A stretch of 64,000 nucleotides of DNA from Candidatus Woesearchaeota archaeon (GTDB lineage Archaea > Nanobdellota > Nanobdellia > SCGC-AAA011-G17 > GW2011-AR18): contig JAGVZG010000001.1 in NCBI GenBank assembly GCA_018302765.1, forward strand, positions 68,482 through 132,481, in the 5' to 3' direction. The notes under the pieces are model-generated. The model did not search any database, was not told where the DNA came from, and was given only the letters and a program-made list of their open reading frames with translations. Positions within the stretch are counted from its first letter, which is position 1. Each line of letters starts with the position of its first letter. The position numbers and the translations under genes are program-made. This document shows, one piece after another, positions 6,408 through 64,000 of this stretch.

Positions 6408-7349
6408 TTGATTAATCGTGAATATTTTAATTATGATATGTTAAGACTATTCTGGTATTTTGTATGTGAGAGACAGAGCGTCTGGTATAAGCGTTTTTGT
6501 TGTAAATTAGATCCGCCATGGACCAAAGATATAATTTTACAAAAAGAGAGATTTACTAATGTTTATAGAGAATTAGATCCTGGAACGATTTACGCTATTA
6601 ATAATATACTTGAGGTTGATGCTCCAAAACAAGATAAAATTTTCAATACCATGTTCTATCGTTTGGTTGGTAGTTCCAATACTCACAAAGAAGTTGGATT
6701 TCAGAAACTAAGTTATTTTAATCCAGAGCATTTAGAGGCAAAGATGAAATATATTAGGGACGTTGAAAAGAAGTCTGTTTTTACTGCAGCTTATATGGTT
6801 AGTGGTTATTCCAAAATGGGTTCAAAAGATAAGGTAGAAAATGTTGTCAGGTTATTTACCAAACTGAGAAATTCTTTTGACTCTATTTATTCAGATATTC
6901 AAGGTTGCAAGAATTCTGAAGAGGTTTATAATGTTATTAGAGGTTTGTATGGTTTTGGCAATTTTTTATCATATCAGATATTGGTTGACTTGCTTTATCC
7001 TTTGAGAATATGTAAAGGCAAGAGTCTTTTACCTTATTCACATGATGACTGGGCAAGTGCAGGGCCTGGAGCAAAAATAGGAATCGAATTATTATTGAAA
7101 AAAGGCTTAAAGTTTAGCAATCTTGATGTAATGATGTGGTTAAGAAAAAATCAGTGTGAAGAATTTTTGAGGTTTGGCTTAAATTTTAATTATTTAACTG
7201 ATGACAAAGGTGATAAAATTGAGCTGTCTTTAGCAAACATACAGAACTGCCTTTGCGAATTTCATAAATACATTAAGATTAGGGATGGAACTGGAAGAGG
7301 AAGAAGAAAGTTTACTAGTGGTTTTTTTAATGTAAACAAAATATCCTAA
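6408..7349 (+). CDS. hypothetical protein (Trp/Tyr-rich N-terminus, no P-loop)
   Basis: 313-aa ORF. Its stop overlaps the convergent HIT gene. It is adjacent to the ThyX-like gene. Confidence 0.45.
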   Translation: MINREYFNYDMLRLFWYFVCERQSVWYKRFCCKLDPPWTKDIILQKERFTNVYRELDPGTIYAINNILEVDAPKQDKIFNTMFYRLVGSSNTHKEVGFQKLSYFNPEHLEAKMKYIRDVEKKSVFTAAYMVSGYSKMGSKDKVENVVRLFTKLRNSFDSIYSDIQGCKNSEEVYNVIRGLYGFGNFLSYQILVDLLYPLRICKGKSLLPYSHDDWASAGPGAKIGIELLLKKGLKFSNLDVMMWLRKNQCEEFLRFGLNFNYLTDDKGDKIELSLANIQNCLCEFHKYIKIRDGTGRGRRKFTSGFFNVNKIS

Positions 7350-15724: not shown

Positions 15725-17041
15725 ATGGCAGACGTAGTTGTTCCGGATGGATCTAGCAGAGATGACGATACAGATAAAATTATAACTATAGATATGAGTG
15801 CAATAGCAGATGATACTACGCCTTTACTTCAACAAGTTCATAATGAAAAAAGTGAACCAATGGCTATACCTAATTCTTTAAATTTAAATCTTATTCATGA
15901 TACTAAAATTCATGAGCAAATTGAAGATTTGCGTGTTAGAGACTGTCCTAGTTTAGAAAAGGTTTTGATAGGTTTGGGATATGATGATTCACACAATATT
16001 GTTAATGTATCTGTAGAAGACGCTGATCCTATTTATTATAAGGTTGGAACTGGTCTTGTATTTCAAGTAGACTTAGAAATTAATATTGGTACGACTACAA
16101 GTGGTTTTGTTGGAATTGATTATAGGACATGTGAAATTCCGAATTTGCATGTTTTGGCAAGAAATTCTTCTAATTTAAATCGTAATAATAAATTAGCGAG
16201 CTTGTATAAGAAATGGGTAGATTTTAGTTATAAACATAATTTTAGTAAAATTGTAGGAATGATGGACAGCGATGATGTCGTTAGAATATTCAGAATTTTT
16301 GATTATGATAATATTGAAAATGTTGAAATTCATAAAGTTGAATTAGTTAAAAATGAATATTATTTAGAGGCTTCTTGTTTTTATAGATCTTCTGTTGGGA
16401 GTATAAAATCAAGTTTATTTTGTGGAAAAATTCCAGCGAGTAAAATTTTATTAGACGTACGTTATTTGGAAGCAAATGTGATGAATTTGAAGAGAAAATC
16501 TTCAGCAGGAAAAATTATATCTATTGGCGCTTTTGGACTTGCTAGTTTGCTTGGCTTAGCTTATTTAGGATTGAGTACTCAGGATGTTTCTGGCTATAGT
16601 CCTGATTTATTGACTTCAAGTGGCGGTGATTTAGTAAGTCCTGCAGATATGACGCTTCATGAAGATCTTAAGTCTGAATATTTAGGTGACGCTAGCAATG
16701 GCGTTGCGGTTGATTTAGGAAGTAGTTCTAGTCATCCACCAGTTAGAATTTCTTTTATGGCACGCAGACCTAAAACTAAGGGCAGTTTATTTGTTAAGGT
16801 TGGTGGTGCTTCAGATGGAAGACATGTATTTAAGTATACTGCTGGAAAAGTAGGTTCTTATAGTACAAAAACAGGTAAGCCATCTTTTTATTCAGATGCA
16901 TTTAATGATTGGGTTGGCACAACTGCTGACAAATATGAAAAAGTTGATTCAGACGGTGTTTATAATAATAAAAATTGCAACAAACCACAGAAAGGTTTAA
17001 TGAAAGATATGCCTGCTTATGTTTGTGCGCAGCCAAAGTAA
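15725..17041 (+). CDS. membrane protein P1: acidic N-terminal domain, central TM helix, C-terminal FKY/CKPQ/AYVC domain (paralog family)
   Basis: TM segment ISIGAFGLASLLGLAYLGL. The C-terminus (VRISFMARRPKTKGSLFVKVGG...VFKY...VYNNKNCNKPQKGLMKDMPAYVCAQPK) is near-identical in key motifs to the 32512 and 33830 proteins. Confidence 0.55.
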   Translation: MADVVVPDGSSRDDDTDKIITIDMSAIADDTTPLLQQVHNEKSEPMAIPNSLNLNLIHDTKIHEQIEDLRVRDCPSLEKVLIGLGYDDSHNIVNVSVEDADPIYYKVGTGLVFQVDLEINIGTTTSGFVGIDYRTCEIPNLHVLARNSSNLNRNNKLASLYKKWVDFSYKHNFSKIVGMMDSDDVVRIFRIFDYDNIENVEIHKVELVKNEYYLEASCFYRSSVGSIKSSLFCGKIPASKILLDVRYLEANVMNLKRKSSAGKIISIGAFGLASLLGLAYLGLSTQDVSGYSPDLLTSSGGDLVSPADMTLHEDLKSEYLGDASNGVAVDLGSSSSHPPVRISFMARRPKTKGSLFVKVGGASDGRHVFKYTAGKVGSYSTKTGKPSFYSDAFNDWVGTTADKYEKVDSDGVYNNKNCNKPQKGLMKDMPAYVCAQPK

Positions 17042-27003: not shown

Positions 27004-27894
27004 ATGGTTTTGATAAGAAAAAAATCAATAGATAGCAAGGAGTATTATTATTTGGAACATTCATTTAGAGAAGCAGGTTCTGTCAAAAAAAAAGAACTTT
27101 ACTTAGGAACTGAGATTCCCAAAAATATTGAAGAAATCAAGATAAAATTTACTGAAGAAATATATAAAGAAAGATGGAGTAAAACATTAGAAGAGATAAA
27201 AAAAGAGTATAATAAAGAAAATAGATCAATACCAGAATCGTTAACTGAAAAAGAAATAGAATCTTTTATGATTAAATTTACTTATAATACTCAAAGGATA
27301 GAAGGTTCAAGGTTAACATTAAGAGAAACTGCAAATTTATTAGAAAAAGGAATAACGCCCAAAGAAAAACCTGTTAGAGATGTTAGAGAAGCAGAAGCAC
27401 ATAAAAAAGTATTCTATGAAGTGTTAAAATTCAAAAAAGACTTGTCATTAGATTTAATTCTTCATTGGCATAGAATGTTGTTTTTAGAAACAAAAAAAGA
27501 TATGGCTGGAATACTAAGAAAACACCAGGTTGCAATATCTGGGAGTAAGTTTATACCTTCCTCTCCTGTAGAAGTTTATTTATTATTAAGGGAATTCTTT
27601 AAATGGTATGAAAAAAATAAAAGTAAGATAAATCCTGTAGAATTAGCAGCATGCGTTCATTTAAAATTTGTTACAATACACCCATTTGGAGATGGGAATG
27701 GGAGAATATCAAGACTGATGATGAATTTTGTTCTCAAAAAAAATAAATATCCAATGTTAAATATAAAATATGAAGGAAGAAATAGTTATTATAATGCGCT
27801 TGAAAGATCGCAAGTAAAGAAAAATGAAGGAATATTTATACAATGGTTTATAAAAACTTATATAAAAGAAAATAAAAGATATTTGAAGAAATAA
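27004..27894 (+). CDS. fic: Fic-family protein (AMPylase-type) with putative inhibitory helix
   Basis: Fic motif HPFGDGNGRISR (HPFx[DE]GNGR). An upstream TQRIEG matches the [ST]xxxE[GN] auto-inhibition motif. Confidence 0.8.
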   Translation: MVLIRKKSIDSKEYYYLEHSFREAGSVKKKELYLGTEIPKNIEEIKIKFTEEIYKERWSKTLEEIKKEYNKENRSIPESLTEKEIESFMIKFTYNTQRIEGSRLTLRETANLLEKGITPKEKPVRDVREAEAHKKVFYEVLKFKKDLSLDLILHWHRMLFLETKKDMAGILRKHQVAISGSKFIPSSPVEVYLLLREFFKWYEKNKSKINPVELAACVHLKFVTIHPFGDGNGRISRLMMNFVLKKNKYPMLNIKYEGRNSYYNALERSQVKKNEGIFIQWFIKTYIKENKRYLKK

Positions 27895-32511: not shown

Positions 32512-33774
32512 ATGTCTATTAAAAATTGGACAATAGGTGGCCTTGGTGCACTTGTTTTAGGACTTGCTGCTTCTTCTTTAACTTGTAAGCCTTGCAATGA
32601 TTTAGCAAGAAAAGTTAGTGGTAAAGAACTTCCTTTATTTGGTCGTGTTAATGGAAATACGCAAAACAAAAATCCTGCTCCTTTGCCTAAGCCTCATGTT
32701 GCAGATGACGAACCTGCTGCTGACGAAGGTAGTAGTGATGATAGTTCTGAAAAAACTACAGAATCTGCAGAAGTAGAATCAAAAAGTTCTGGTTCATCAG
32801 ACGCAGATTCTTCTTCTAAAAAACCTAGTTTTGTTAAAGTTGGCAATGTTGGAAATAAAGACGTATTCAAATATGACTTAGGTAAAGTTAGGGATGGAGA
32901 GGGTTCATTTTTGTACGCTGTTAGATTTAATAAATGGGACGACAGTTCTGAAGGAGACACCTATAAAAAAGTTGGTCAAAATGATGTTTACAATAATAAA
33001 AATTGTAAGCCACAGAAAAATTTTATGAAAGGTATGCCTGCTTATGTTTGTGTTCTTCCTAATAATGGGGAAAGTGGAGACACTCCTGGAGATGCTGGTG
33101 ATCGTGCTCCAAATAATGTTGAAGTGAGGTCAGATTCTGGTGCAGTTGCAACAACAGATCCTACATCTACTCGAACTTTGCACGTAGCAATAGAACGTCC
33201 AAGTTCTCCAGATCTTGGTTCAGATTCTGGCGTAGGCAGTTCTGGAACAATTGAATTAGTTGTTAATCCTTATGCTAATGCTACTGAGACAGCAACTCCT
33301 GCTGAGAGTGGCGACTCTGAAGATGATAGTTCTGGCGATACTTACGATGAAGATGCTGCTGGCACTTCTGGTCGTCGTGATTATACTGACCCTTTTGGCG
33401 TTGTTTTGTCTGGCGACCCAGTTGCAGCACAATATGGCACTGCAATAATAAGTGGTTTTAATGAAGCTTATCAAGATAAATATAGGACTAAGAACAGCGG
33501 TAAATGCTTAAGTGTAAATATTGGTTTAGAATACGCTGTTGGAGCAAAAGGCGAACTTGTTAGTATAAGGGGATATTTTTGTGGGGACTTAGAATCATGC
33601 GCTGGAAGAGGAAAACTTTATTTGGATCAACCTCATGATTCTAGTTTAGATGAAAATTTTACTTTTGGAAGAGAGCTGATTAAGGTAATAAGAGTAGAGA
33701 ATTCTAAAAGGCCACTTGTTTCTGTCAAAAGAGGAAACTACGTAGGTTCTATAATTGAATTTGGTTGTGAATGA
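32512..33774 (+). CDS. secreted protein P3: signal/TM N-terminus, acidic Ser/Asp/Glu-rich low-complexity linkers, FKY/CKPQ/AYVC domain (paralog family)
   Basis: N-terminal hydrophobic segment GGLGALVLGLAASSL. The KKPSFVKVGNVG...VFKY...VYNNKNCKPQKNFMKGMPAYVCVLP domain matches the C-terminus of the 15725 protein. Confidence 0.55.
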   Translation: MSIKNWTIGGLGALVLGLAASSLTCKPCNDLARKVSGKELPLFGRVNGNTQNKNPAPLPKPHVADDEPAADEGSSDDSSEKTTESAEVESKSSGSSDADSSSKKPSFVKVGNVGNKDVFKYDLGKVRDGEGSFLYAVRFNKWDDSSEGDTYKKVGQNDVYNNKNCKPQKNFMKGMPAYVCVLPNNGESGDTPGDAGDRAPNNVEVRSDSGAVATTDPTSTRTLHVAIERPSSPDLGSDSGVGSSGTIELVVNPYANATETATPAESGDSEDDSSGDTYDEDAAGTSGRRDYTDPFGVVLSGDPVAAQYGTAIISGFNEAYQDKYRTKNSGKCLSVNIGLEYAVGAKGELVSIRGYFCGDLESCAGRGKLYLDQPHDSSLDENFTFGRELIKVIRVENSKRPLVSVKRGNYVGSIIEFGCE

Positions 33775-33829: not shown

Positions 33830-36061
33830 ATGTCTTTAAGATCACTACTATATGCAGCGCTTTTTTTATTTATTGGCAGTGCTGAAACTAACGTTGATGC
33901 TGCTAGAAAACCTAGGTCAGAGAGAACAGCGTTTTCTAAAATAAAAGAAAAGGGTAATGTACATGTTTTTAAGTACAGAGTATCTAGTGGTGAAAAAGAC
34001 AGTGATATTGCTTTGAAATTTGGGATTTGGGACAGAGGCCAAGGCAGTTTGTATGAAACAGTTACTTCTGCAAGCGTTACTGGCGACCCTTCTTGTAAAC
34101 CTCAACTTCTTAAAAAAGAAAACATTGCTTATGTTTGCGCTAATAGAAAACTACGTGTAGTGCCTAATGATTTCAAAGGGCCTTCTATTGAATTTATAGA
34201 TTTGTTTGATACTCCTTATTGGGGTTCTTTGTTGAAGGTTACAAAGAGTTTTGGTCCTGATGGATTTCCAGTTCACACTGTTGATTTAAATATAACTGCA
34301 AGAGAAAAAATAAATGTTAATTCTAGGAGAAGTGCTTATGCTTATAGAGGTTCACATGATTTGGAAAGTATAACTATTTTTGCTTTTGATAGAGATGCTG
34401 AGAGAGATCTTACTTTATGTCCAGAAAAAGTCTATGAGTTTAAGTATGACGAGCTAGTTACTTTGCCTAATTGCATTACTGATGGTTCTTATGGTATTTT
34501 GGCAGCTTTAGAACATTTTGCTAAGTTTGAGTATGGCGTTTTAGATAAATATACAGAAACTGTTCCGCCAGGATTAGCAGGTTTTAAGGCTGGAAGATTA
34601 GTTAAACCATCTGCAGAACTTGCACCAGCTCCGATAATATTTATAACTCCTCCACCTTCTCCAACACCTTTAGTTCCAGTTCCAGTTTCAACAATACCAG
34701 CAGCTCCTAGTGGTTCAAGTGCTTCATCTTCTGCTACTACAACAGTTCATTCTCCACCTATTAGTTTCAAAGCTAGAAGACCAGGACCTGGTTCAGCTGT
34801 ACCTTCAGTTGGTTCAGGAATTTCAACAATACCAGCAGCTCCTAGTGGTTCAAGTGCTTCATCTTCTGCTACTACAACAGTTCCTTCTCCACCTATTAGT
34901 TTCAAAGCTAGAAGACCAGGACCTGGTTCAGCTGTACCTTCAGTTCCAGCTTCGGTTTCTGTTTTTAGCGGTTGGACTGATACCGCTTTAGGTTCAAGCA
35001 CTGAATCTTGTAGTGCCTGCGCATCAACAAACTCAGTACAATTTGTAGGAGGAGTTAGAGTTCGTGGCTTGTTAAGTAACGTTGAATTTAATAGCAACAC
35101 AGGTTTAGAATCTTCTTATGGTTTTATTGGTGGAGATTTACGTTTAGTTTTGGGTGGGGGTGTTGGGAATAATTATTTAGCAGTTTCTGCAGCTGCTGGA
35201 TTAAGAAAAGTTGGCGTAGATGGATTATTAAGTAAAAGGCTTTTGGACTTTGGTGACAATAGTAATACAACTCATGTAGAAGTTGGACCGTCTGGAAGAT
35301 TACATTTAGCTAAAGGAAATAAATTGGAAGTTGATGCTGTACTTAATCCTGCTTTTTTATATAGTAGAGAGCGTGTAAATAATTTTGGCGGAAATAGTTT
35401 CTTAGAGGAAGGTAAAGGGCTTAGGATAAATGGCAGTGTAGCTTTACCTCGTCTCTTATTTAATGGAGAAAAATTTGCTTGGGGTTTATACGGTGATTTT
35501 GATTTAGAGGCATTGAGACTAAAGCAAACTAATCTGAATAGTGGACAGGAAACTTTGTTTGGCTGGAGAACTAGAGGATCTTATGGCGGAGGCAGTTCTT
35601 TTAGTTTTGATGCTTTAGGAACAGACGTTAATATTGGTGTTGGATTTAGGACGCACCATAATTATAATTTAGCTTTAAGAAGTAATTTATCTCCTAATGA
35701 TTTAAAGTGGTTACAATACAGACAACAGAGAGGTTTTATACTTGATTTAAGTGATCTTACTGTAGGTGATTCTAGAGGGTATACTTTAGACCCAGCTTTA
35801 ACTATTGAAAATGATAGGTTTTATTTAAGACTTGAAGGACAAGTATCTATTTATGGAAATGTAAGGAGAGGGGGATTTTGCTTAAATACTGGTGGCAAAA
35901 CCAGAGGTGGTTTATACATTGGTAGTGGGTTTTGTTACAGTGATATTACTCAAGAATCTGAAGCAGGCAGTGCCAGAAGCAGGGGAGGATCAGTTAATAT
36001 TACTTTAGGAAGTCCCAGTATTAAATTAAATCCAAGAATTGATCAGGCAGACATAAGATAA
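33830..36061 (+). CDS. secreted protein P4: signal peptide, divergent FKY/CKPQ/AYVC domain, Pro/Ser-rich region with tandem ISFKARRP-containing repeat, Gly/aromatic-rich beta-strand-like C-terminal domain
   Basis: Signal peptide LLYAALFLFIGSA. Motifs VFKY...SCKPQ...IAYVCA are present. SPPISFKARRPGPGSAVPSV appears twice. The C-terminal ~350 aa shows alternating hydrophobic/polar residues rich in G, N, R, Y and F. Confidence 0.55.
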   Translation: MSLRSLLYAALFLFIGSAETNVDAARKPRSERTAFSKIKEKGNVHVFKYRVSSGEKDSDIALKFGIWDRGQGSLYETVTSASVTGDPSCKPQLLKKENIAYVCANRKLRVVPNDFKGPSIEFIDLFDTPYWGSLLKVTKSFGPDGFPVHTVDLNITAREKINVNSRRSAYAYRGSHDLESITIFAFDRDAERDLTLCPEKVYEFKYDELVTLPNCITDGSYGILAALEHFAKFEYGVLDKYTETVPPGLAGFKAGRLVKPSAELAPAPIIFITPPPSPTPLVPVPVSTIPAAPSGSSASSSATTTVHSPPISFKARRPGPGSAVPSVGSGISTIPAAPSGSSASSSATTTVPSPPISFKARRPGPGSAVPSVPASVSVFSGWTDTALGSSTESCSACASTNSVQFVGGVRVRGLLSNVEFNSNTGLESSYGFIGGDLRLVLGGGVGNNYLAVSAAAGLRKVGVDGLLSKRLLDFGDNSNTTHVEVGPSGRLHLAKGNKLEVDAVLNPAFLYSRERVNNFGGNSFLEEGKGLRINGSVALPRLLFNGEKFAWGLYGDFDLEALRLKQTNLNSGQETLFGWRTRGSYGGGSSFSFDALGTDVNIGVGFRTHHNYNLALRSNLSPNDLKWLQYRQQRGFILDLSDLTVGDSRGYTLDPALTIENDRFYLRLEGQVSIYGNVRRGGFCLNTGGKTRGGLYIGSGFCYSDITQESEAGSARSRGGSVNITLGSPSIKLNPRIDQADIR
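34688..34945 (+). repeat. near-perfect tandem duplication: two 123-bp units separated by 12 bp (period 135 bp) inside the P4 coding sequence
   Basis: Units 34688-34810 and 34823-34945 differ at about one base (cattct vs ccttct). Each encodes STIPAAPSGSSASSSATTTV[H/P]SPPISFKARRPGPGSAVPSV. Confidence 0.85.
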
Positions 36062-42793: not shown

Positions 42794-43168
42794 ATGCTAA
42801 CATTACAATATGTACCACATCATGAATTTGTTTCTTTGGACATGGATGAAAAGATAAGAAGAATTCTTAAATCTGTTAAGGATGGTAAAATTTTGTTGAT
42901 TGAAGGAAGATTGGATCATATTGAAGAATCAGAACTAATAAAGAGAACAATGCAGATAATAAACAAAACTTTCAAAGGCATAGAGATTGCAAGCATAGAT
43001 TATGAGTTCAAGGGTGATTTTTTAGACAAACTTAAGAAAGATATTGCGCATTTTTTATTAAGAAAGAGATCTGGTTTAACAATTGTAGGTCCTGCAACCA
43101 TAGTTAAGGAAATAAGGAAAGATCCTAGCAAAATAGAACTTTTAACTATGGAAAAAAAGAAGAAATGA
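42794..43168 (+). CDS. hypothetical protein (possibly DUF2073-like archaeal protein)
   Basis: 124-aa ORF downstream of the GTPase. The family assignment is from memory only. Confidence 0.35.
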   Translation: MLTLQYVPHHEFVSLDMDEKIRRILKSVKDGKILLIEGRLDHIEESELIKRTMQIINKTFKGIEIASIDYEFKGDFLDKLKKDIAHFLLRKRSGLTIVGPATIVKEIRKDPSKIELLTMEKKKK

Positions 43169-43357
43169 TATTTAGGAATCATAGGATAAACCCTGGCTTT
43201 ATTGTTGTTGGGTCTTTTGTTTTTACTTCTTTAGTACATTATTTTATATTTAGTAGATTGCAGCAGGTTAATTCTACAGTGCATGCTTTTATTGGAACAT
43301 TATTATTTTTTATAGTTTTTACTGTAAGTTCTTCTTTGAATAGGAAATAATATTTTA

Positions 43358-43759
43358 CTAAAAATATTTATTGTTTTTTCCTGATATTGAGTAAAATGCT
43401 AAGCCAACTGCAACCAGACCTAAGCCTATTTCTAGTTCATGGTTTCCTAATTTGACAGCTAGATCTCTGTCTCTTTGAATTTTTCCGCCTGTTGCTGTCA
43501 ATTCACTATAACAGCACCAAGATCCAGATATGAAACCAGATTCGTCACAAGTTCCTTCATTATAATTACTAACTCTTGTTTGATAAAGAGGAAAGCATTC
43601 GTGTTCAAGTTTAACTCCTAAAATTTTTGAAGTTATATTTACATCGGGAAGAACGCCATCATCAAGAGTATTTTCTAGAGTGCATTTAATTAAAACATTA
43701 CCAGCAAGCACCAAACCTCCTAAAAATGCAATTGCTCCAGCAGGTTTATTTTTTATCAT
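43358..43759 (-). CDS. secreted/membrane Cys-containing hypothetical protein
   Basis: N-terminal hydrophobic segment, several Cys, and a C-terminal hydrophobic segment. Confidence 0.4.
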   Translation of the reverse strand: MIKNKPAGAIAFLGGLVLAGNVLIKCTLENTLDDGVLPDVNITSKILGVKLEHECFPLYQTRVSNYNEGTCDESGFISGSWCCYSELTATGGKIQRDRDLAVKLGNHELEIGLGLVAVGLAFYSISGKNNKYF

Positions 43760-43900
43760 TTTAAGTAATTGTTCTGTTATTTTATTTAAAACTTTCTATT
43801 GGTAATTACTTGTTAGTAATTAAATAATTCAGTACAAAACTAATTATTTTTACAGAAACTTTAATATAGTACGTTTTTTTATTAATTATAGTGATACAAA

Positions 43901-44287
43901 GTGCCCCACCAATGTGTTAAGTGTAATAAAATATACGAAGATGCAAGTAACGAAATTCTGAAAGGTTGCAACAGTTGCGGTGGTAAATTTTTCTTTTTTA
44001 TTAAGAAAGAGGCTTTGGAACGTGTTAAGGAAGTTACAAGTCAATTAACAAAGGAAGATAAAGAAAAGATAGAAAGGGATGTTTTAGATATTATTGGCTA
44101 TGAAGAGGATAAGCCTATTATTTTGGATTTGGCTTCTGTCAATATCCTGAAACCTGGCAAATTTGAATTGGATATAGTTAGATTGTTTAAGGGAGAGCCA
44201 ATGGTTTATAGACTAGAAGAGGGAAAATATGTTATAGATATAGCTGAGACTTTTAAAAACGTGAAAAAGAGCTTAGTTGGAAAGTAA
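43901..44287 (+). CDS. Zn-ribbon protein
   Basis: CVKC...CNSCG (two CxxC pairs) at the N-terminus; 128 aa. Confidence 0.45.
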   Translation: MPHQCVKCNKIYEDASNEILKGCNSCGGKFFFFIKKEALERVKEVTSQLTKEDKEKIERDVLDIIGYEEDKPIILDLASVNILKPGKFELDIVRLFKGEPMVYRLEEGKYVIDIAETFKNVKKSLVGK

Positions 44288-44603
44288 AATGTCAATGCAG
44301 CATATTCAGAAACAAGTTGATGAATGGACTCAACAATTTAAAGTTCCTTATTGGAGTCCGTTAGAAATGCTGGCTAGGTTAACTGAAGAGACTGGAGAGC
44401 TAGCGAGAGAAGTAAATCATCGTTTTGGTCCTAAAAAGAAAAAACCTACTGAGGAAGTTAAAGAGGTTGGAGATGAAATAGGAGACATAATATTTACAGT
44501 TTGCTGCTTAGCTAATTCTCTCAATATAAATCTTGATGATAGCTTTTCTAGAGTAATGGATAAATGTTATGGAAGAGATAAAGATAGATATGAGAAAAAA
44601 TAA
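44277..44603 (+). CDS. MazG-like nucleoside triphosphate pyrophosphohydrolase
   Basis: EExGELAxE and EVGDEIGDIIF motifs (the EExxE...ExxD pattern of all-alpha NTP-PPases). Confidence 0.7.
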   Translation: MESKMSMQHIQKQVDEWTQQFKVPYWSPLEMLARLTEETGELAREVNHRFGPKKKKPTEEVKEVGDEIGDIIFTVCCLANSLNINLDDSFSRVMDKCYGRDKDRYEKK

Positions 44604-44611
44604 TTTCTAAA

Positions 44612-45247
44612 ATGGCATTTAAACTAATTTGTTTTGATATGGATGGCGTTATTTTTAAAGATATTAATTTTTGGATTGAGCTACATAAAAAGTTTGGAAC
44701 ACTAGAACAAGGTAAAATATTGACTGAAAAATATCTCCATTCAGATTATGCTAAATTAGTTGAGGAAGTAGTTATTAAGTTGTGGAAGGGGAAAAACGCT
44801 GAACTATATTATGATTTAGTTAATTCTTTGGAATATTTGCCTGGTGTTAAAGAAGTTTTTAATTATGTGAAGAACAATTATTATTTTACTGCAATTATTA
44901 GTGGTTCAAGTATAGATGTTGCTAGAAGAGTTCAAAGAGATTTTGGTATAGATCATATATATGCTAATGAATTAGTTATTAAAAATGGAAAAGTAAGTGG
45001 TGAATTTGTTTGGCCAATAGGTGCAGGAAAAGAGAAAAAGGCACAAATTATTATGAATTTATGTAATGATTTGAATATACTTACAAAAGAAGCTATTTAT
45101 ATTGGAGATAGTGATAATGATATAGAAGCATTTAAAGAAGTAGGTTTATCTATTGCGTTTAATTCTGATTCTAAAGAACTGAAAAAATTTGCAACTTATG
45201 TTGTTGATAGTAATAATTTATCTGATATATTGAAGTATTTACCTTAA
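44612..45247 (+). CDS. HAD-superfamily hydrolase (phosphoserine phosphatase-like, subfamily IB)
   Basis: Motif I FDMDGV and motif IV GDSDND. Confidence 0.7.
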   Translation: MAFKLICFDMDGVIFKDINFWIELHKKFGTLEQGKILTEKYLHSDYAKLVEEVVIKLWKGKNAELYYDLVNSLEYLPGVKEVFNYVKNNYYFTAIISGSSIDVARRVQRDFGIDHIYANELVIKNGKVSGEFVWPIGAGKEKKAQIIMNLCNDLNILTKEAIYIGDSDNDIEAFKEVGLSIAFNSDSKELKKFATYVVDSNNLSDILKYLP

Positions 45248-45317
45248 ACTCTAACTTCAATTTTTCTTCTATTGTCTAGGTCTTTAAGAAGCTCTTGTCC
45301 TAATTTGGATTTTTTAT
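45244..45317. repeat. 74-bp perfect direct repeat, copy 1 of 2 (flanks the hicBA cassette; duplicates the 3' end of the PIN-PhoH-KH ATPase gene)
   Basis: Identical to 45805-45878. Confidence 0.85.
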
Positions 45318-45559
45318 AAATATTTTGCAAATTCTTCTTCATCTATTTTTGCTAGTTTTAATACAGATTTAAGAGTTCCTATTTTTATTTCTTTATGCAT
45401 TGGAACAACAGTACCAACTTTTCCTTCAGGTGTTTCTTTAGATAATCTTACATGGCTTCCAGTTCTGCCACTTATTTGGAATCCAAGTTTATTACAAAGA
45501 ATTTTAATTGCTTCCTGTCCTGAAACTTTTCTTAGCTGTGGCATGAATATCAACCTCAA
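45314..45559 (-). CDS. hicA: HicA-family mRNA interferase toxin
   Basis: SGRTGSHVRL motif (GSH) and a dsRBD-like fold; 81 aa (the start may be the internal Met). Confidence 0.7.
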   Translation of the reverse strand: MRLIFMPQLRKVSGQEAIKILCNKLGFQISGRTGSHVRLSKETPEGKVGTVVPMHKEIKIGTLKSVLKLAKIDEEEFAKYL

Positions 45560-45743
45560 ATGTAGTCATTATGGGCTTCTCTATATCCTCTGCAGGAAAT
45601 TCTTCTAAGTATAACTCTGTAGCTTCTTTTAGATTAAATATTGCTTCTTCTATAGTATTGCCCTGACTAACTGTACCAATTTCAGGGCATTCGGCAACAT
45701 ACACATCTTCTTCTTTATGTAAAACTGCAGTTAACGTTTTCAT
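45504..45743 (-). CDS. hicB: HicB-family antitoxin
   Basis: YVAECPEIGTVSQGNTIEEAIFNLKEATELYLEE matches the HicB/UPF0150 N-terminal domain. It lies upstream of hicA with overlap. Confidence 0.7.
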   Translation of the reverse strand: MKTLTAVLHKEEDVYVAECPEIGTVSQGNTIEEAIFNLKEATELYLEEFPAEDIEKPIMTTFEVDIHATAKKSFRTGSN

Positions 45744-45804
45744 AATATTTTATAGTTGTACATTTTTATATACTTATCGCCCCTTTAAACGTAAATCTTT
45801 CAGA

Positions 45805-45878
45805 TTAAACTCTAACTTCAATTTTTCTTCTATTGTCTAGGTCTTTAAGAAGCTCTTGTCCTAATTTGGATTTTTTAT
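45805..45878. repeat. 74-bp direct repeat, copy 2 of 2 (native 3' end of the ATPase gene)
   Basis: Identical to 45244-45317. Confidence 0.85.
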
Positions 45879-47628
45879 TTATTTTTAATTCTGCTTTATT
45901 TCCTATAGTATATGTTAACAAAAAATGGCCATCAACGTAAACTTCTGCTATTTTTCCTGCATGTTCTTGGGGAAGTTTGAATACTAATGCTTTTTTTGAT
46001 TCTTCAACTTTATAATTTATAGGAATTTTATCAGACTCTTCATTTTCTATAACTTCTTTTAGTTCTTTTACTGTTAGACCAAAACCTAACTTTTTTTCTA
46101 TTTGAGAAATGTTCTTGCCTTCTTTGCCTATGAATTTAGCTATTTCATCTTCTGGAAGATATACTTCTGCTCTGTTATTATTTATTATTTTTACTTTGAC
46201 ATCATTAACATAAGCTCTAAGTTCTCTTTCTAGTTGTTTTGCTGCTAATGCTTTTGTAGGATCATGCAAGAATTCTTCTTGTACAGGAATTACTACTGTT
46301 TCTTCACCATAGCTGTATATTTCAAATTCTAGTTTGTTTGTTATATAATCACGAACTTCAATTACAGGTCTTGCAAGGTCTGCTTCTGTCATCCCAGAAG
46401 GGACTTTTACTATCATTTGTACTGTAAGTATTCTTGAGACATTTCCTTTTTCTATAAATATTAAAGTATCTAGAACACTTGGAATCATACCAACTTCTAA
46501 TCTTCCAATAAATCTTTGTATTGCATCTATGGGGGTAGCTGCATGTAATACTCCTAAAACATTTGATCCACCTAATCTTAAATCTGTGAATAATATAAAA
46601 TCTGGAGTATCTCTCATTTCATCAAATATAATATAATCAGGCCTTGATAAAAACAAAATGTCATGGATTTCTTCTGAGCTTGCTAGATTTTTACTGTACT
46701 GCGTAACGTCTTTGCTTAGAATTAAACTTCTAGGACTTTCTATTGTTTTTGTTATAAAACTATTAGTTGCATAATATTCTGCTAGAGATTGTGCGAAGGT
46801 AGATTTTCCAGATCCCGTAGTGCCAGCAATTATAACACCTCTTGCTTTTGTCTTTACTCTTTCTGCTATGTTAGTTGGTAAATTATAATCATCAATTTTT
46901 AAGACTTTAATCGGTCTTACAGCAGTTATTTCCCAGCCGTCAGAAACTGGTGTTTTAGTTATTACTATTCTGTAATTTTTGTATTGAACTATTGTTGATC
47001 CAGGTCTTGAAATTTCAATAAATGCATCAGACTCTATCCTTGATCTTTCTACTATTTCTTTTGCCATTTCTTGTACTTCTTGTTGAGTTAGAATATTTGT
47101 GGCTACGTCTAATAATTTCCATTCTCCTGGCTTTCCTTTTTTAGCCCTTGGAGGGCAACCTTCTCTCAGATGCACAGACATTGTTTCATAATCAAAATAT
47201 TGTTCAATTTCTAAAGCTTCTGTTAATTGCCTATGTGGAGAATATATTACTTCTACGCCTAATGCTTTTGCTGATTCTGCTTGTATTCTATCTGCTGTAA
47301 CCAGAATAGCTCCTTCATTGTAGGCAATATCCCTTATTATAGCATCTATCTCTCCACCTTGTTTTGCATAAGCAATTTGATAGAGGTTTGGACGTTCTCC
47401 TGTAAACATTAGTGTTATTTTTCCTTCTTTGAATAGCTTTTGTAAGTTTTGAACTTCTTCTAAACCTAGAAATCCAATCTCTTGGCCTGTGTTAGCCTGG
47501 TGTTCTAGTTCAGCCATTACAGCTTTAGGCACTATAATTTTACCTGAAATTTTCTTAGATTTGATAAACTGAGACACTAGGCGTTCTACAACTACAGATG
47601 TATCAACAACATATGTTTTTTCTTCCAT
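45805..47628 (-). CDS. PIN-domain + PhoH-like ATPase + KH-domain protein (archaeal PilT/PhoH2-like)
   Basis: N-terminal PIN (VVDTSVV), Walker A AGTTGSGKST, and a C-terminal KH GxxG (IGKEGKNI); 607 aa. Confidence 0.7.
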   Translation of the reverse strand: MEEKTYVVDTSVVVERLVSQFIKSKKISGKIIVPKAVMAELEHQANTGQEIGFLGLEEVQNLQKLFKEGKITLMFTGERPNLYQIAYAKQGGEIDAIIRDIAYNEGAILVTADRIQAESAKALGVEVIYSPHRQLTEALEIEQYFDYETMSVHLREGCPPRAKKGKPGEWKLLDVATNILTQQEVQEMAKEIVERSRIESDAFIEISRPGSTIVQYKNYRIVITKTPVSDGWEITAVRPIKVLKIDDYNLPTNIAERVKTKARGVIIAGTTGSGKSTFAQSLAEYYATNSFITKTIESPRSLILSKDVTQYSKNLASSEEIHDILFLSRPDYIIFDEMRDTPDFILFTDLRLGGSNVLGVLHAATPIDAIQRFIGRLEVGMIPSVLDTLIFIEKGNVSRILTVQMIVKVPSGMTEADLARPVIEVRDYITNKLEFEIYSYGEETVVIPVQEEFLHDPTKALAAKQLERELRAYVNDVKVKIINNNRAEVYLPEDEIAKFIGKEGKNISQIEKKLGFGLTVKELKEVIENEESDKIPINYKVEESKKALVFKLPQEHAGKIAEVYVDGHFLLTYTIGNKAELKINKKSKLGQELLKDLDNRRKIEVRV

Positions 47629-61347: not shown

Positions 61348-62739
61348 ATGATGAAGGGGAAATTAACTATACTGTTGCCTATTTTGTTTGTTTTATTGTC
61401 TAGTTTTGTATTTGCTGCTCCTATAGCTCCTACTAATTTTCAAGCCAGAGCAGTCAGTATAAATACTATTAATTTAACTTGGAACTACAATTTTGGCAGT
61501 GAAGACCGTTATTATATATACCAATCTACAGACGGTACAAATTTTGCATATAAAACTACAGTTCTTTTTAGTGCTTTTGCCATGAGTACTTTGATTGGAA
61601 GTTTATCTCCTAATACTAGGTATTGGTATTCTATTAGGTCTTCAGACGGATTTCAAAATTCCACTGCTGTTTTTGCATTTCCGGTTTATACTTTGGCTAG
61701 TACACCTACATCTGTGGCAGCCGCAACCTTAAACAAAACCTCTGTTTTTGTTTCGTGGAATGGAGATGGAAATGATTATTATGTAACAGCAACTACAGGT
61801 TTAACTTCAAAGGCTTCAGGTTTTGTGACAGGCAAAAATTATACTTTTACAGATTTAAGTTGTTCTTCTACTTACGGTTTTCGTGTTTTAGGTAGAAATG
61901 GAGATGGACGTAATTCAAGTTTTTCGTTCCCTGAATTTTCTGCAACAACAAGTTCTTGTTTTACTCCTCCTCCTGCAGACGCTGTTAGTCCGCGAGTTAC
62001 TGGGGTTGTTGATAAATCTATAGCTGTTAGTTGGGACGATGGTGGCGGAGGAGAAATCCAATATAAATTAGAGCAGTCTACAAATGGAACAGATTTTGTT
62101 CAGATTGCTACAGTTCCTGCAACAACTTTACAATTTGCTTTTAGTTCTTTGGTGCCAAACACCCCTTATTGGTTTAAGATTAAAGCTACAAATGGCGAAA
62201 CTACTACTGACGGAGTTATAGCGATTGTAGCTCCTACTCATACAAGAGCAGAACCTCCAGGGTTAACTCAAGGTACTGCAACAGAGACTGAAATTCCTTT
62301 GTTTATAGATCCAGGAAATAATACTGATTATACATTATATAATATTAGAGTAAATAATGGCGGCTTTTTAGGTTCTTGGCAAAATCTTTCTTCTTGGGGC
62401 AATATAGTTGCTAGAAATCTAATACCTAATACTGTTTATGTTTTTGATGTTTACGCTGTAAATGAAGGTGGGTATATAGCACAGGGCTCAACAGTTGTTG
62501 AAAGTACACTTCCTACAACTACTCCATTGGCTCCTTATAATTTAGCTGTTAGTGACGTAGTAAATGATTCAGTAACATTACAATGGTCTCCAAGTTTTGG
62601 AACAGAAACAAATTTCTTGATAGAGCAAGACAGCGGAGCAGGATTTGTTCAGGTAGGTTCAGTTCCATCAACATCAACATCATACCAGGCTACAGGTCTT
62701 CTTCAGCATATACAAATACAGAACAGGCAACTACATTAG
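61348..62739 (+). CDS. fibronectin type III repeat surface protein (N-terminal part, up to the frameshift)
   Basis: Signal peptide MMKGKLTILLPILFVLLSSFVFAA and a GAGGG Shine-Dalgarno. Repeated ~95-aa FN3-like units (PTNF..L.W; Y.Y.V.A.N..G). Confidence 0.6.
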   Translation: MMKGKLTILLPILFVLLSSFVFAAPIAPTNFQARAVSINTINLTWNYNFGSEDRYYIYQSTDGTNFAYKTTVLFSAFAMSTLIGSLSPNTRYWYSIRSSDGFQNSTAVFAFPVYTLASTPTSVAAATLNKTSVFVSWNGDGNDYYVTATTGLTSKASGFVTGKNYTFTDLSCSSTYGFRVLGRNGDGRNSSFSFPEFSATTSSCFTPPPADAVSPRVTGVVDKSIAVSWDDGGGGEIQYKLEQSTNGTDFVQIATVPATTLQFAFSSLVPNTPYWFKIKATNGETTTDGVIAIVAPTHTRAEPPGLTQGTATETEIPLFIDPGNNTDYTLYNIRVNNGGFLGSWQNLSSWGNIVARNLIPNTVYVFDVYAVNEGGYIAQGSTVVESTLPTTTPLAPYNLAVSDVVNDSVTLQWSPSFGTETNFLIEQDSGAGFVQVGSVPSTSTSYQATGLLQHIQIQNRQLH

Positions 62740-64000
62740 CTAATATTCCTACTGGTGTTGTAGCCAATACAATTGATAGAGACTCTATTATCGTTTCATG
62801 GAATGGGGATGCAACTGAATACTATGTTTTTGATATTTTTAATCCAAGTACTAATTCAGATTGGATTACTGGAACGTCTTATACTTTTAATAATTTAAAT
62901 TGTGGCGTTTTTTATAGCTTTAGTGTTAGAGGAAGAAATTCTATTGGTAATGAGACAACAGATTCTGAAGTTGTTTCAAATAGAACAGCTGACTGCCCAG
63001 CACCATTAAATCCTACTAGTGTTATTGCAGAAAATGCTACCAATGAAAGTATGGACATAAGTTGGACTCCTGCAAGTGGAGGTATAGAAACTAATTATAT
63101 AGTACAAAAATCTACTAATGGGTTTAGTTTTTCAACAATAGCAACAGTTCCTGCAATAGTTACATCATATCAAGCTAGAGATTTATTTACAGATACTAGT
63201 TATTGGTTTAGGATACAGTCAACTGACGGAACAATAATATCAAGTGGCACTGTATCAAGTCCTCTTTATACACTAGCAAATATTCCAGGAATTCCCACAT
63301 TGACTAGTGAAACTTCAAATACTATTAAAGTAGTAATAGATCCAGCTAATAATCCATTTAACACAGGGTACTTTTTATATGATTCTACAACAAATAAATA
63401 TCTTCAATCAGATTATAGTTGGGGAGATGTTTCTACTCGTGGTTTGTTTGGTTATTTTGGTTTAGGTGGACCAAATGGAGCAACTACAATAGGAATAAGT
63501 CCAAATAGTTTACATAGTATAAATGTTGCTTCTGTTAATGGTAATGGGATTGTAAGAGGTGGCTCTGCTGCTAATGTATATACTTTAGCAAGCATCCCTG
63601 CAAATGTTACAACAAATGCAAATAATAATAGTGCCATTACTGTTTCATGGAATGGAGATGCAACTGATTATTATGTTCTTGAGTCTTCTGGAATGAATTC
63701 AGACTGGATTACTGGAACGTCTTATACTTTTAATAATTTAAATTGTGGCGCTTTTTATAGCTTTAGAGTGAAGGGAAATAATGCTGTGGGCGCTGAGACA
63801 ATATATTCAAATGATTTTGGTCAGAGTACCCAAGCTTGTGATCCTACAGTTAATGCTCCTACAGATCTTCAAGTTGATTTTGTAACTAATGAGACAGTAG
63901 ATTTAAGCTGGACATCAGGAAGAGGAAGTGAGAGTACTTTTATAATAGAACAAAGTTTAAATGGAAATGATTTCAGTGTTGTAGGTTTCACTCAGTCTCT
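62697..64000 (+). pseudogene. continuation of the FN3-repeat protein in the +2 frame (more FN3 units; runs off the window end)
   Basis: Stop-free frame to the window end. It encodes repeats such as IVSWNGDATEYYV...NLNCG.FYSF.V.G.N. The junction lies inside an FN3 unit. Confidence 0.5.

What the first reader, a model, noticed from the sequence alone, without database searches (positions are those of the whole stretch)
45244..45878. hicB-hicA toxin-antitoxin cassette bracketed by 74-bp perfect direct repeats that duplicate the 3' end of the PIN-PhoH-KH ATPase gene
The sequence TTAAACTCTAACTTCAATTTTTCTTCTATTGTCTAGGTCTTTAAGAAGCTCTTGTCCTAATTTGGATTTTTTAT occurs at 45244-45317 and again at 45805-45878. 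The second copy is the genuine last ~24 codons plus stop of the 607-aa ATPase gene. The first copy abuts the HAD hydrolase stop. Between them lies only hicB-hicA. A 74-bp duplication is far longer than a transposase target-site duplication, so it points to site-specific (att-like) integration or recombination-mediated cassette insertion. It gives a clean example of TA cassette mobility with intact boundaries.
Basis: seen in the sequence. Interest (0 to 1): 0.6.

Follow-up and report, generated by a model that had tools for sequence, protein, structure and literature searches.

The report
hicBA cassette inserted with 74-bp duplication
A tiny two-gene toxin-antitoxin module was inserted into the tail of a conserved ATPase gene in a groundwater archaeon, and a duplicated 74-base copy of that tail keeps the gene intact; this is a clean archaeal toxin-antitoxin example of an insertion type known mainly from bacterial restriction-modification genes.

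Summary
A perfect 74-bp direct repeat lies at 45244-45317 and 45805-45878, with 0 of 100 shuffles matching it. All 22 other contigs of the same Rifle groundwater Woesearchaeota population that span both positions also carry both copies. Between the copies lie 487 bp: a 61-nt promoter leader, hicB and hicA. Copy 2 is the true end of the PIN-ATPase-KH gene. Copy 1 is a relic that supplies the stop codons of both HAD and hicA.

The insertion reading is supported. An outgroup relative (L100, about 80% identical proteins) has HAD and ATPase converging on the same CCTTAAAC overlapping-stop junction, with no hicBA and no repeat. One contig of the same population (L081) shows a precise empty site, though assembler loop-skipping is not excluded. 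The same cassette, conserved at nucleotide level (alignment mean column identity 79%), sits in three unrelated chromosomal contexts.

No integrase, transposase, tRNA gene or terminal inverted repeats were found. The best fit is "insertion with long target duplication" through host recombination or repair. The DNA probably came from a relative whose cassette already abutted its ATPase stop codon, as in L014. Site-specific integration in trans remains possible.

I rate it a new member of a known kind, of moderate interest.

The parts
44612..45247 (+). HAD-IB family phosphatase gene (211 aa). It converges on the ATPase gene, and its last base and stop codon (TAA, 45245-45247) lie inside repeat copy 1.
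   Evidence: Pfam Hydrolase/HAD hits; NCBIfam HAD-SF-IB above its cut-off; the same HAD/ATPase TTAA stop overlap in L100 and L081.
45244..45317 (.). Repeat copy 1 (R'). A non-functional relic copy of the last 74 bp of the ATPase gene, which supplies the stop codons of HAD and of hicA.
   Evidence: No ORF continues into it in the ATPase frame.
45318..45804 (-). The 487-bp unique insert: a 61-nt leader, hicB and hicA up to its last sense codon. GC is 0.316, against 0.309 for the window.
   Evidence: Absent from L081 and L100. Found at nucleotide-level similarity in three unrelated contexts. GC.
45314..45544 (-). hicA toxin gene (76 aa from the ATG at 45544; the ORF extends to a TTG at 45559). 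It carries a GSH motif, and its stop TAA lies inside R'.
   Evidence: Pfam HicA_toxin, 58.4 bits against a cut-off of 27. Gene callers use the 76-aa form. Sequence.
45504..45743 (-). hicB antitoxin gene (79 aa, short form without a DNA-binding domain), overlapping hicA by 41 nt.
   Evidence: Sub-threshold Pfam HicB_lk_antitox, DUF7387 and UPF0150 hits. The identical protein is named HicB family antitoxin by NCBI. Weak PDB hit to TTHA1756.
45744..45804 (-). 61-nt cassette leader that abuts the ATPase stop codon. Its BRE/TATA-like core GCGATAAGTATATAAAAA lies at 45763-45780, 19 nt before the hicB ATG.
   Evidence: The core is conserved upstream of hicB in L014, L094, L095, L096 and L101. The whole leader matches the L014 leader at 48 of 61 positions, above all 300 shuffles.
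45805..45878 (.). Repeat copy 2 (R): the functional last 23 codons plus stop of the ATPase gene.
   Evidence: The tail is conserved in relatives.
45805..47628 (-). Target gene: PIN-ATPase-KH protein (607 aa), PRK13764 type, related to the Holliday-junction branch-migration ATPase PINA.
   Evidence: Pfam PIN, T2SSE and KH hits. NCBIfam NF010335, 751.9 bits against a cut-off of 340. The PINA model scores 505 against a cut-off of 800.

Best explanation
Before the insertion, the HAD and PIN-ATPase-KH genes converged with overlapping stop codons (CCTTAAAC) and no intergenic space. A compact hicB-hicA module with its own promoter (487 bp) then entered 74 bp inside the 3' end of the ATPase gene. The insertion came with a duplication of those 74 bp.

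The copy next to the ATPase body completes that gene. The copy left next to HAD is a relic that still provides the HAD stop and, by a join at or next to the hicA stop codon, the hicA stop.

This matches the pattern called "insertion with long target duplication". I infer it was made by host recombination or repair, not by a recombinase encoded in or near the cassette. The incoming DNA most likely came from a related Woesearchaeote in which a hicBA cassette already abutted the ATPase stop codon, as seen in L014. One junction was guided by the shared ATPase 3' terminus. The other was an illegitimate join with 2-4 nt of microhomology (AT..A / ATAA) between the hicA stop and position -74 of the ATPase gene.

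Once in place, the two repeats allow loop-out of a 561-bp unit by homologous recombination. That would give a precise empty site. Loss should be opposed by the stable HicA toxin and labile HicB antitoxin.

Shown here: the repeat, the cassette content, the ancestral empty arrangement, the cassette in other contexts, and the lack of recognisable recombinase genes. Inferred: the donor, the junction chemistry, excision and addiction.
For: Repeat and anatomy. The structure was reproduced in all 22 other contigs that span both positions.

Ancestral empty arrangement: L100 (HAD 81%, ATPase 80% aa) has OapC-HAD-><-ATPase with an identical CCTTAAAC junction. Its R region matches at 62 of 74 positions, and it has no hicBA and no repeat. 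ATPase identities are W-L014 90%, W-L100 80% and L014-L100 80%, which makes L100 the outgroup. The adjacency is therefore ancestral by parsimony.

Same-population empty allele: in L081, HAD|single R|ATPase has both flanks 100% identical apart from one 10-N scaffold gap.

Cassette is a discrete horizontally moving unit: its closest HicB relatives (79-85% aa) sit between unrelated genes in L094, L095 and L096. Nucleotide homology (alignment mean column identity 79%) runs from the promoter core to the hicA stop and ends exactly there. Those copies use TGA, whereas W uses a TAA supplied by R'.

Donor-type arrangement exists: L014, the closest relative, has a different hicBA allele (54% and 40% aa). 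It starts right after its ATPase stop and has a homologous 61-nt leader (48 of 61 matches, above all shuffles) and no repeat. This explains why the repeat's outer edge falls exactly on the stop codon.

Recency: R and R' are identical, whereas R differs from the L014 sequence at about 17 of 74 positions (my count from the alignment).

No integrase or transposase domain in the neighbours or in 20 mid-size ORFs; no tRNA gene; no terminal inverted repeats.

Precedent: insertions with target duplications longer than 30 bp, often spanning a stop or start codon so that the target gene stays intact, are documented for restriction-modification systems (PMC2853133).
Against: No donor carrying the W-type hicBA coding sequence next to an ATPase gene was found.

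Perfect identity of the two copies requires either a near-identical donor or a duplication templated from the recipient. The second would shift weight to the staggered-break or template-switch rival.

The only same-population empty site is one contig from a scaffolding assembler that seems to use k=55, shorter than the repeat. L009 from that pipeline ends with exactly 55 nt of R, and its scaffolds carry N gaps. L081 could therefore be a loop-skip.

No circle or tandem junction was seen.

Other copies of the cassette carry no flanking repeats, so this is a single event and not a demonstrated habit.

Several ORFs in the window have no Pfam hit, so an unrecognised recombinase is not excluded.

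HicA toxicity and HicB neutralisation are untested.
Confidence: 0.6

Rival explanations
1. Target-derived duplication. Only the 487-bp cassette came in. The 74-bp repeat was generated from the recipient itself, either by a staggered double-strand break with 74-nt overhangs that were filled in, or by replication template switching or microhomology-mediated repair involving sister chromosome copies.
For: The two copies are 100% identical, which is automatic if both derive from the recipient. This is the literal meaning of "long target duplication" in the restriction-modification literature. No donor with an identical R is known.
Against: The outer edge of the repeat falls exactly on the ATPase stop codon. 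The leader that follows is homologous to the leader that follows the ATPase stop in L014. That is expected if donor and recipient sequences diverge at that point, and would be a coincidence for a random staggered cut. A duplication extending into HAD would have been equally tolerated.
Confidence: 0.2
2. Site-specific integration. The 561-bp unit is a non-autonomous integrative cassette (comparable to a cis-mobilisable element). Its attP equals the ATPase 3' end, and it is inserted and excised by an integrase acting in trans from elsewhere in the genome or from a co-resident element. It could also be the remnant of a larger element after internal deletion.
For: Identical direct repeats that duplicate the 3' end of the target gene and restore it are the classic signature of integrase-mediated integration. 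An apparently precise empty site exists. hicBA cassettes lie just downstream of the same ATPase gene in three lineages: W, L014 and L043.
Against: No integrase was found within 6 kb on either side or among 20 further ORFs of the window. No repeat flanks the cassettes of L014 and L043 or the nearest-sequence copies in L094-L096. Neither R nor the cassette occurs in viral contigs. No circular junction was seen. The repeat boundaries coincide with the stop codons of two genes, not with a recognisable core site.
Confidence: 0.13
3. hicBA is old at this locus, inherited from the common ancestor of W and L014. The relic copy arose later in situ, or is kept identical by gene conversion. The empty contig is then only a repeat-mediated deletion or an assembly loop-skip.
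For: W and L014 share the ATPase-stop|leader junction and a homologous leader. Deletion between 74-bp direct repeats is easy.
Against: The W hicBA coding sequence is far closer to copies in unrelated contexts (79-85% aa) than to L014 (54% and 40%). The HAD|R junction is identical to that of outgroup L100, so R' sits in its ancestral place. A non-coding copy as old as the W-L014 split should have diverged, since R itself differs at about 17 of 74 positions between the two lineages.
Confidence: 0.05
4. Assembly artefact: the repeat or the cassette position is a chimeric join.
For: Some contigs break at or inside the repeat (L009, L013, L085).
Against: The same structure was recovered in all 22 other contigs that span both positions, from several samples and assemblers, including k=127 and k=141, which are longer than the repeat.
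Confidence: 0.01

Closest known systems
Insertion with long target duplication of restriction-modification gene units (Nobusato et al. 2000, Gene 259:99; Furuta, Abe & Kobayashi 2010, PMC2853133)
   Same: A small self-contained addiction-type gene unit lies between direct repeats longer than 30 bp. A single copy of the repeat occupies the empty site of a related genome. No integrase or transposase is linked. The repeat spans the stop codon of the target gene, so that gene stays intact.
   Different: The cargo is a type II toxin-antitoxin pair whose toxin family cuts RNA, not DNA. The cargo-made DNA break suggested for restriction-modification units therefore cannot apply. The host is a DPANN archaeon, and no archaeal case survived the 2010 screen. 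The insert is only 487 bp. I found no paper in the searchable library that describes this pattern for a toxin-antitoxin module.
Integrase-mediated integrative elements and their integrase-less derivatives (cis-mobilisable elements)
   Same: Identical direct repeats (attL/attR-like) duplicate the 3' end of the target gene and restore it, and an empty site is precise.
   Different: No integrase lies in or near the element. The target is not a tRNA gene. No excised circle was detected. The repeat edges are gene stop codons. This comparison rests on my general knowledge of such elements.
Homology-facilitated illegitimate recombination in naturally transformable bacteria (de Vries & Wackernagel 2002; my knowledge, not read here)
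   Same: Foreign DNA is anchored by one homologous flank, here the ATPase 3' end, and joined at the other end by a few bases of microhomology.
   Different: Such events usually replace or delete recipient DNA. Here the illegitimate joint lies inside the anchor region and gives a duplication. DNA uptake and recombination pathways in Woesearchaeota are unknown.
HicAB toxin-antitoxin family
   Same: The HicA domain scores above the Pfam threshold. The antitoxin gene is adjacent and overlapping. The distribution across contexts and lineages is patchy and horizontally mobile.
   Different: The gene order is antitoxin first. HicB is a 79-aa short form without a DNA-binding domain and scores below the Pfam thresholds.

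Membership tests
HicA toxin (PF07927) | Profile match above the curated threshold | tested here: met
   58.4 bits against a cut-off of 27, E 7.9e-16, covering profile positions 1-58 of 58. There is no NCBIfam hit and no PDB sequence hit.
HicA toxin (PF07927) | Conserved Gly-x-His catalytic motif | tested here: met
   GRTGSHVRL is present in the 76-aa product. The role of the motif is from my knowledge of HicA structures, not tested here.
HicA toxin (PF07927) | RNase toxicity neutralised by the partner protein | not testable with these tools
   Needs expression experiments.
HicB antitoxin | Profile match to the HicB N-terminal (partial RNase H-like) domain | tested here: inconclusive
   PF15919 scores 24.4 against 27, DUF7387 24.2 against 27.9 and UPF0150 18.5 against 27.3. 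NCBIfam gives nothing. The identical protein is named HicB family antitoxin by NCBI. Weak PDB hit to 2yzt TTHA1756, E 0.008.
HicB antitoxin | Gene adjacent to and co-oriented with hicA | tested here: met
   hicB lies at 45504-45743 and hicA at 45314-45544, on the same strand with a 41-nt overlap.
HicB antitoxin | C-terminal DNA-binding domain (RHH/HTH) of canonical HicB | tested here: not met
   The protein is only 79 aa and shows no such domain. Short HicB forms of 67-80 aa dominate its homologues.
Insertion with long target duplication (criteria of PMC2853133) | The complete cargo unit lies inside an insert shorter than 20 kb | tested here: met
   The promoter, hicB and hicA lie within 487 bp.
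Insertion with long target duplication (criteria of PMC2853133) | Direct duplication of target sequence longer than 30 bp | tested here: met
   74 bp, 100% identical.
Insertion with long target duplication (criteria of PMC2853133) | A related genome has an empty site where a single copy of the repeat aligns | tested here: met
   L100 (62 of 74 identical, same flanking genes) and L081 (74 of 74, identical flanks). L081 may be an assembler loop-skip.
Insertion with long target duplication (criteria of PMC2853133) | No linked mobility gene, and the repeat is not a multicopy element | tested here: met
   No integrase or transposase domain was found. The window holds only two copies. The rest of the genome was not available.
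Integrase-mediated integrative element | Integrase gene within or next to the element | tested here: not met
   Some ORFs remain without any Pfam hit.
Integrase-mediated integrative element | Excised circular form with an attP junction | tested here: inconclusive
   No leader|R|hicA junction occurs in any fetched contig. Raw reads were not available.
DNA transposon / IS / MITE | Terminal inverted repeats, a short (2-15 bp) target duplication and a transposase | tested here: not met
   No inverted repeat lies at the cassette ends. The duplication is 74 bp. No transposase was found.
PIN-ATPase-KH protein (NF010335 / PRK13764), the target gene | Equivalog-level profile match | tested here: met
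   751.9 bits against a cut-off of 340. The PINA branch-migration ATPase model scores 505 against a cut-off of 800, so the protein is a relative, not a PINA equivalog.

The most novel reading that the evidence does not exclude
hicBA modules of Woesearchaeota could be discrete, non-autonomous mobile cassettes with defined ends: a conserved leader (CTGAAAGATTT...CGATAAGTATATAAA) on one side and the hicA stop on the other. On this reading they are repeatedly targeted to the 3' end of the PINA-like recombination ATPase gene by a recombination activity acting in trans, and the 74-bp repeats are functional attachment sites. That would explain three different hicBA alleles sitting downstream of the same gene in W, L014 and L043.
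Probability: 0.1. Interest if true: 0.65.

Novelty: new member of a known kind. Interest (0 to 1): 0.38.

Why it matters
How chromosomal toxin-antitoxin modules move without any mobility gene is poorly documented. Here both boundaries, the ancestral empty site and possibly a segregating empty allele are all visible at base resolution. The host is a DPANN archaeon with almost no intergenic space.

The case shows that "insertion with long target duplication" is not restricted to bacteria or to DNA-cutting restriction-modification cargo.

It also illustrates how a streamlined genome can accept a cassette inside a gene tail without losing the gene. The result is a repeat-flanked unit that could excise, amplify or be exchanged.

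This is a single natural example, not a new mechanism.

Tried and rejected
- **Metagenome collection:** I scanned it for the R core and for the conserved HAD/R junction and found 0 hits. The collection evidently lacks this population, so no further empty or filled alleles came from there.
- **Viral contigs:** scans for R and for HicB found nothing.
- **Flanking repeats elsewhere:** I looked around hicBA or downstream of the ATPase gene in 16 related loci and in L094-L096 and found none.
- **Split ATPase genes:** L068, L071 and L073 show an apparent 40-residue overlap that looked like a second insertion with duplication. They are inteins in the Walker A loop (GSGK|C...HN|S).
- **L036 leader match:** the 36-nt match is only a generic archaeal promoter in front of an unrelated 278-aa gene.
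- **566-bp HicB contig (L101):** its size is close to the 561-bp unit, but it is a linear fragment from another context, not a circle.
- **Target-site motif:** upstream stop codons of five cassette copies show no common motif, only leaders of 52-61 nt abutting a stop in four of the five.
- **Composition:** the insert has GC 0.316 against 0.309 for the window, so it is not distinct.
- **More relatives:** L102 (82%) and L103 (79%) have other downstream neighbours. This confirms a hypervariable region but adds no empty site.

Full report
**Observation.** The 74-mer TTAAACTCTAAC...GGATTTTTTAT occurs at 45244-45317 and 45805-45878 with no mismatch. It occurs nowhere else in the window even with 3 mismatches allowed, and none of 100 dinucleotide-preserving shuffles gave a match. 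The spacing is 561 bp, leaving 487 unique bases between the copies.

Copy 2 starts exactly at the stop codon of the 607-aa PIN-ATPase-KH gene on the minus strand. It encodes that gene's last 23 residues. Copy 1 overlaps the convergent HAD phosphatase gene by 4 nt and contains its stop codon. At its other end it contains the stop codon of hicA.

The interval holds a 61-nt leader, hicB (79 aa) and hicA (76 aa from its ATG). HicA is a clear Pfam match. HicB is sub-threshold but is named as such by NCBI. All 22 other fetched contigs that span both positions carry both copies at the same spacing; the remainder end inside or next to the repeat or cassette. They come from several Rifle groundwater samples and assemblers, including k=127 and k=141. 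The structure is therefore real. The organism is a Woesearchaeote (DPANN archaeon) with about 31% GC.

**Which state is ancestral.** I fetched 64 related ATPase loci and mapped the window's proteins onto them. The stretch between the ATPase gene and the origin-associated genes OapC/OapB turned out to be hypervariable.

The decisive locus is L100, found through the HAD homologue P0242. Its HAD is 81% and its ATPase 80% identical to the window's. The two genes converge on the same ...TATTTACCTTAAACTCTAAC... junction with overlapping stops. L100 has no hicBA and no repeat, and its 74-bp region matches at 62 of 74 positions.

ATPase identities are W-L014 90%, W-L100 80% and L014-L100 80%. L100 is therefore the outgroup, and the HAD/ATPase adjacency is ancestral by parsimony. 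It follows that the outer junctions of the window's structure (HAD|R' and R|ATPase body) are native and the two inner junctions are new. hicBA was inserted.

**A possible empty allele in the same population.** L081 (ENA ERZ28563803) reads HAD|single 74-mer|ATPase. It matches the window at 100% over 4.7 kb on one side, apart from one 10-N scaffold gap, and over 998 bp on the other. Among contigs of 10 kb or more, 16 collection blocks hold HAD and 15 hold HicB or HicA. That difference of one is consistent with L081's contig.

The pipeline that made L081 produces N-gapped scaffolds. Another of its contigs (L009) ends with exactly 55 nt of the repeat, which suggests k=55, shorter than 74. Skipping of the R-X-R loop therefore cannot be excluded. 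I treat the allele as probable but unproven. No contig carries a circle or tandem junction.

**The cassette is a discrete unit that moves.** The closest HicB relatives (79-85% aa) lie in unrelated places:
- L094: between a peptidase and RNase J. Its contig belongs to the same MAG as ATPase locus L021, where no hicBA was found next to the ATPase gene.
- L095: next to ribosomal protein genes.
- L096: in another Rifle organism.

The nucleotide alignment has a mean column identity of 79%. Homology runs from the promoter core (C)GATAA(G/C)TATATAAA to the hicA stop and ends exactly there. The other copies stop with TGA. W stops with a TAA that belongs to R'. None of these copies has flanking repeats.

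The leader in W is a mosaic clue. It is not significantly similar to the leaders of L094 and L096. It is clearly homologous to the leader of L014 (48 of 61 matches; the best of 300 shuffles gave 43). L014 is the closest relative, and a different hicBA allele (54% and 40% aa) starts right after its ATPase stop codon without any repeat.

**Mechanism.** There is no integrase or transposase domain in the neighbours or in 20 further ORFs. There is no tRNA gene and there are no inverted repeats at the cassette ends. A 74-bp duplication is far beyond transposase footprints.

The pattern meets the published criteria for "insertion with long target duplication". That pattern was described for restriction-modification units in bacteria, where the repeats often span a stop or start codon and so spare the target gene (PMC2853133).

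I favour a homology-guided version of it. On this view the incoming DNA came from a relative in which a cassette abutted the ATPase stop (the L014 arrangement). It paired through the ATPase 3' terminus, and its other end joined illegitimately at 2-4 nt of microhomology between the hicA stop and position -74.

This explains three things:
- The repeat's outer edge is exactly the stop codon, because that is where donor and recipient diverge.
- The leader resembles that of L014.
- The relic copy sits in the ancestral position.

Identity of the two copies, set against about 17 of 74 differences between W and L014 in the same stretch (my count from the alignment), argues that the event is recent. 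The same identity is the main weakness of the model. It requires a near-identical donor or a crossover at the very end of the gene. Otherwise both copies derive from the recipient, which is the staggered-break or template-switch rival (0.2). Site-specific integration in trans keeps 0.13. An old in-situ origin gets 0.05 and an artefact 0.01.

**Consequences (inferred).** Because HAD and ATPase share their stop codons, there is no neutral place to insert. Only an insertion that carries or creates a spare gene tail is viable. The repeats make the 561-bp unit excisable by homologous recombination. The HicA/HicB pair would penalise loss.

**Comparison and verdict.** The hicBA family and long target duplication are both known. 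A toxin-antitoxin cargo, an archaeal (DPANN) host and base-level empty sites make this a new member of a known kind. I found no description of this pattern for toxin-antitoxin modules in the searchable library.

The toxin family cuts RNA, so the cargo-made DNA break proposed for restriction-modification units is not needed for such insertions. Interest is moderate (0.38). This is a tidy, well-bounded example that read mapping could turn into a demonstrated segregating insertion/excision polymorphism, but it is not a surprise to specialists.

Noticed in passing
L068:3455-5001, L071:3485-5001, L073:4028-5001: In three related Woesearchaeota the PIN-ATPase-KH gene is interrupted right after the Walker A GSGK by a roughly 1-1.5 kb insert. 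The insert starts with Cys and ends with HN followed by Ser. This is an intein in the P-loop, not a gene split or duplication.
   Followed up: partly
window 43169-45804 and L014-L044, L102, L103 downstream of the ATPase gene: The stretch between the ATPase gene and OapC/OapB is a hypervariable hotspot among relatives. It holds other hicBA alleles (L014, L043), an AbrB-like plus PIN pair that looks like vapBC (L018), a 234-263 aa basic protein (L015, L017, L023), a NUDIX hydrolase (L019), a DEAD-box helicase (L103) and a TrmB-like regulator (L014).
   Followed up: partly
window 42794-44287: Genes for the origin-associated proteins OapB and OapC lie 1-2.5 kb from the insertion, so a replication origin may be close. 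The cumulative GC skew shows no obvious turn there.
   Followed up: no
window 45795-45807: A small palindrome, AATCT-GAA-AGATT, spans the ATPase stop and the start of the cassette leader. The same arms with a flipped spacer (AATCTTTCAGATT) occur in the leader of the L096 cassette. It could be an operator or a terminator, or chance.
   Followed up: no
window 34686-34945: Two tandem copies of a 135-bp unit (125 nt aligned at 99% identity) lie inside the 743-aa ORF at 33830-36061.
   Followed up: no
window 61689-63808: Diverged direct repeats (66-86% identity, spacings 843-1043 bp) suggest a short array of paralogous genes or domains at the end of the window.
   Followed up: no
window 16928-17027 and 32956-33052: About 100 nt at 79-89% identity are shared by the 3' ends of two ORFs without Pfam hits (15725-17041 and 32512-33774). 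They are probably paralogues.
   Followed up: no
window 6408-7349 and 27004-27894: One ORF matches the 5-hmdU DNA kinase helical domain (HMUDK_hel, E 5e-57), a family linked to hypermodified thymidine in phages. A Fic/DOC family protein is also present. Both are unusual for a small DPANN genome.
   Followed up: no
L096:4200-4470 and L095:4231-4400: The closely related hicBA copies in other genomes are decaying. hicA has a 1-nt insertion in L096 (called as 50 aa), and its homology is lost halfway in L095. The window's copy is intact.
   Followed up: partly
L006:4330-4365 and L006:1838-1847, L081:2421-2430: The ANAN16-1 re-assemblies contain 10-N scaffold gaps and a garbled 26-nt stretch inside the ATPase gene, which splits it into 87- and 458-aa products. 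They should be used with caution as evidence for variants.
   Followed up: yes
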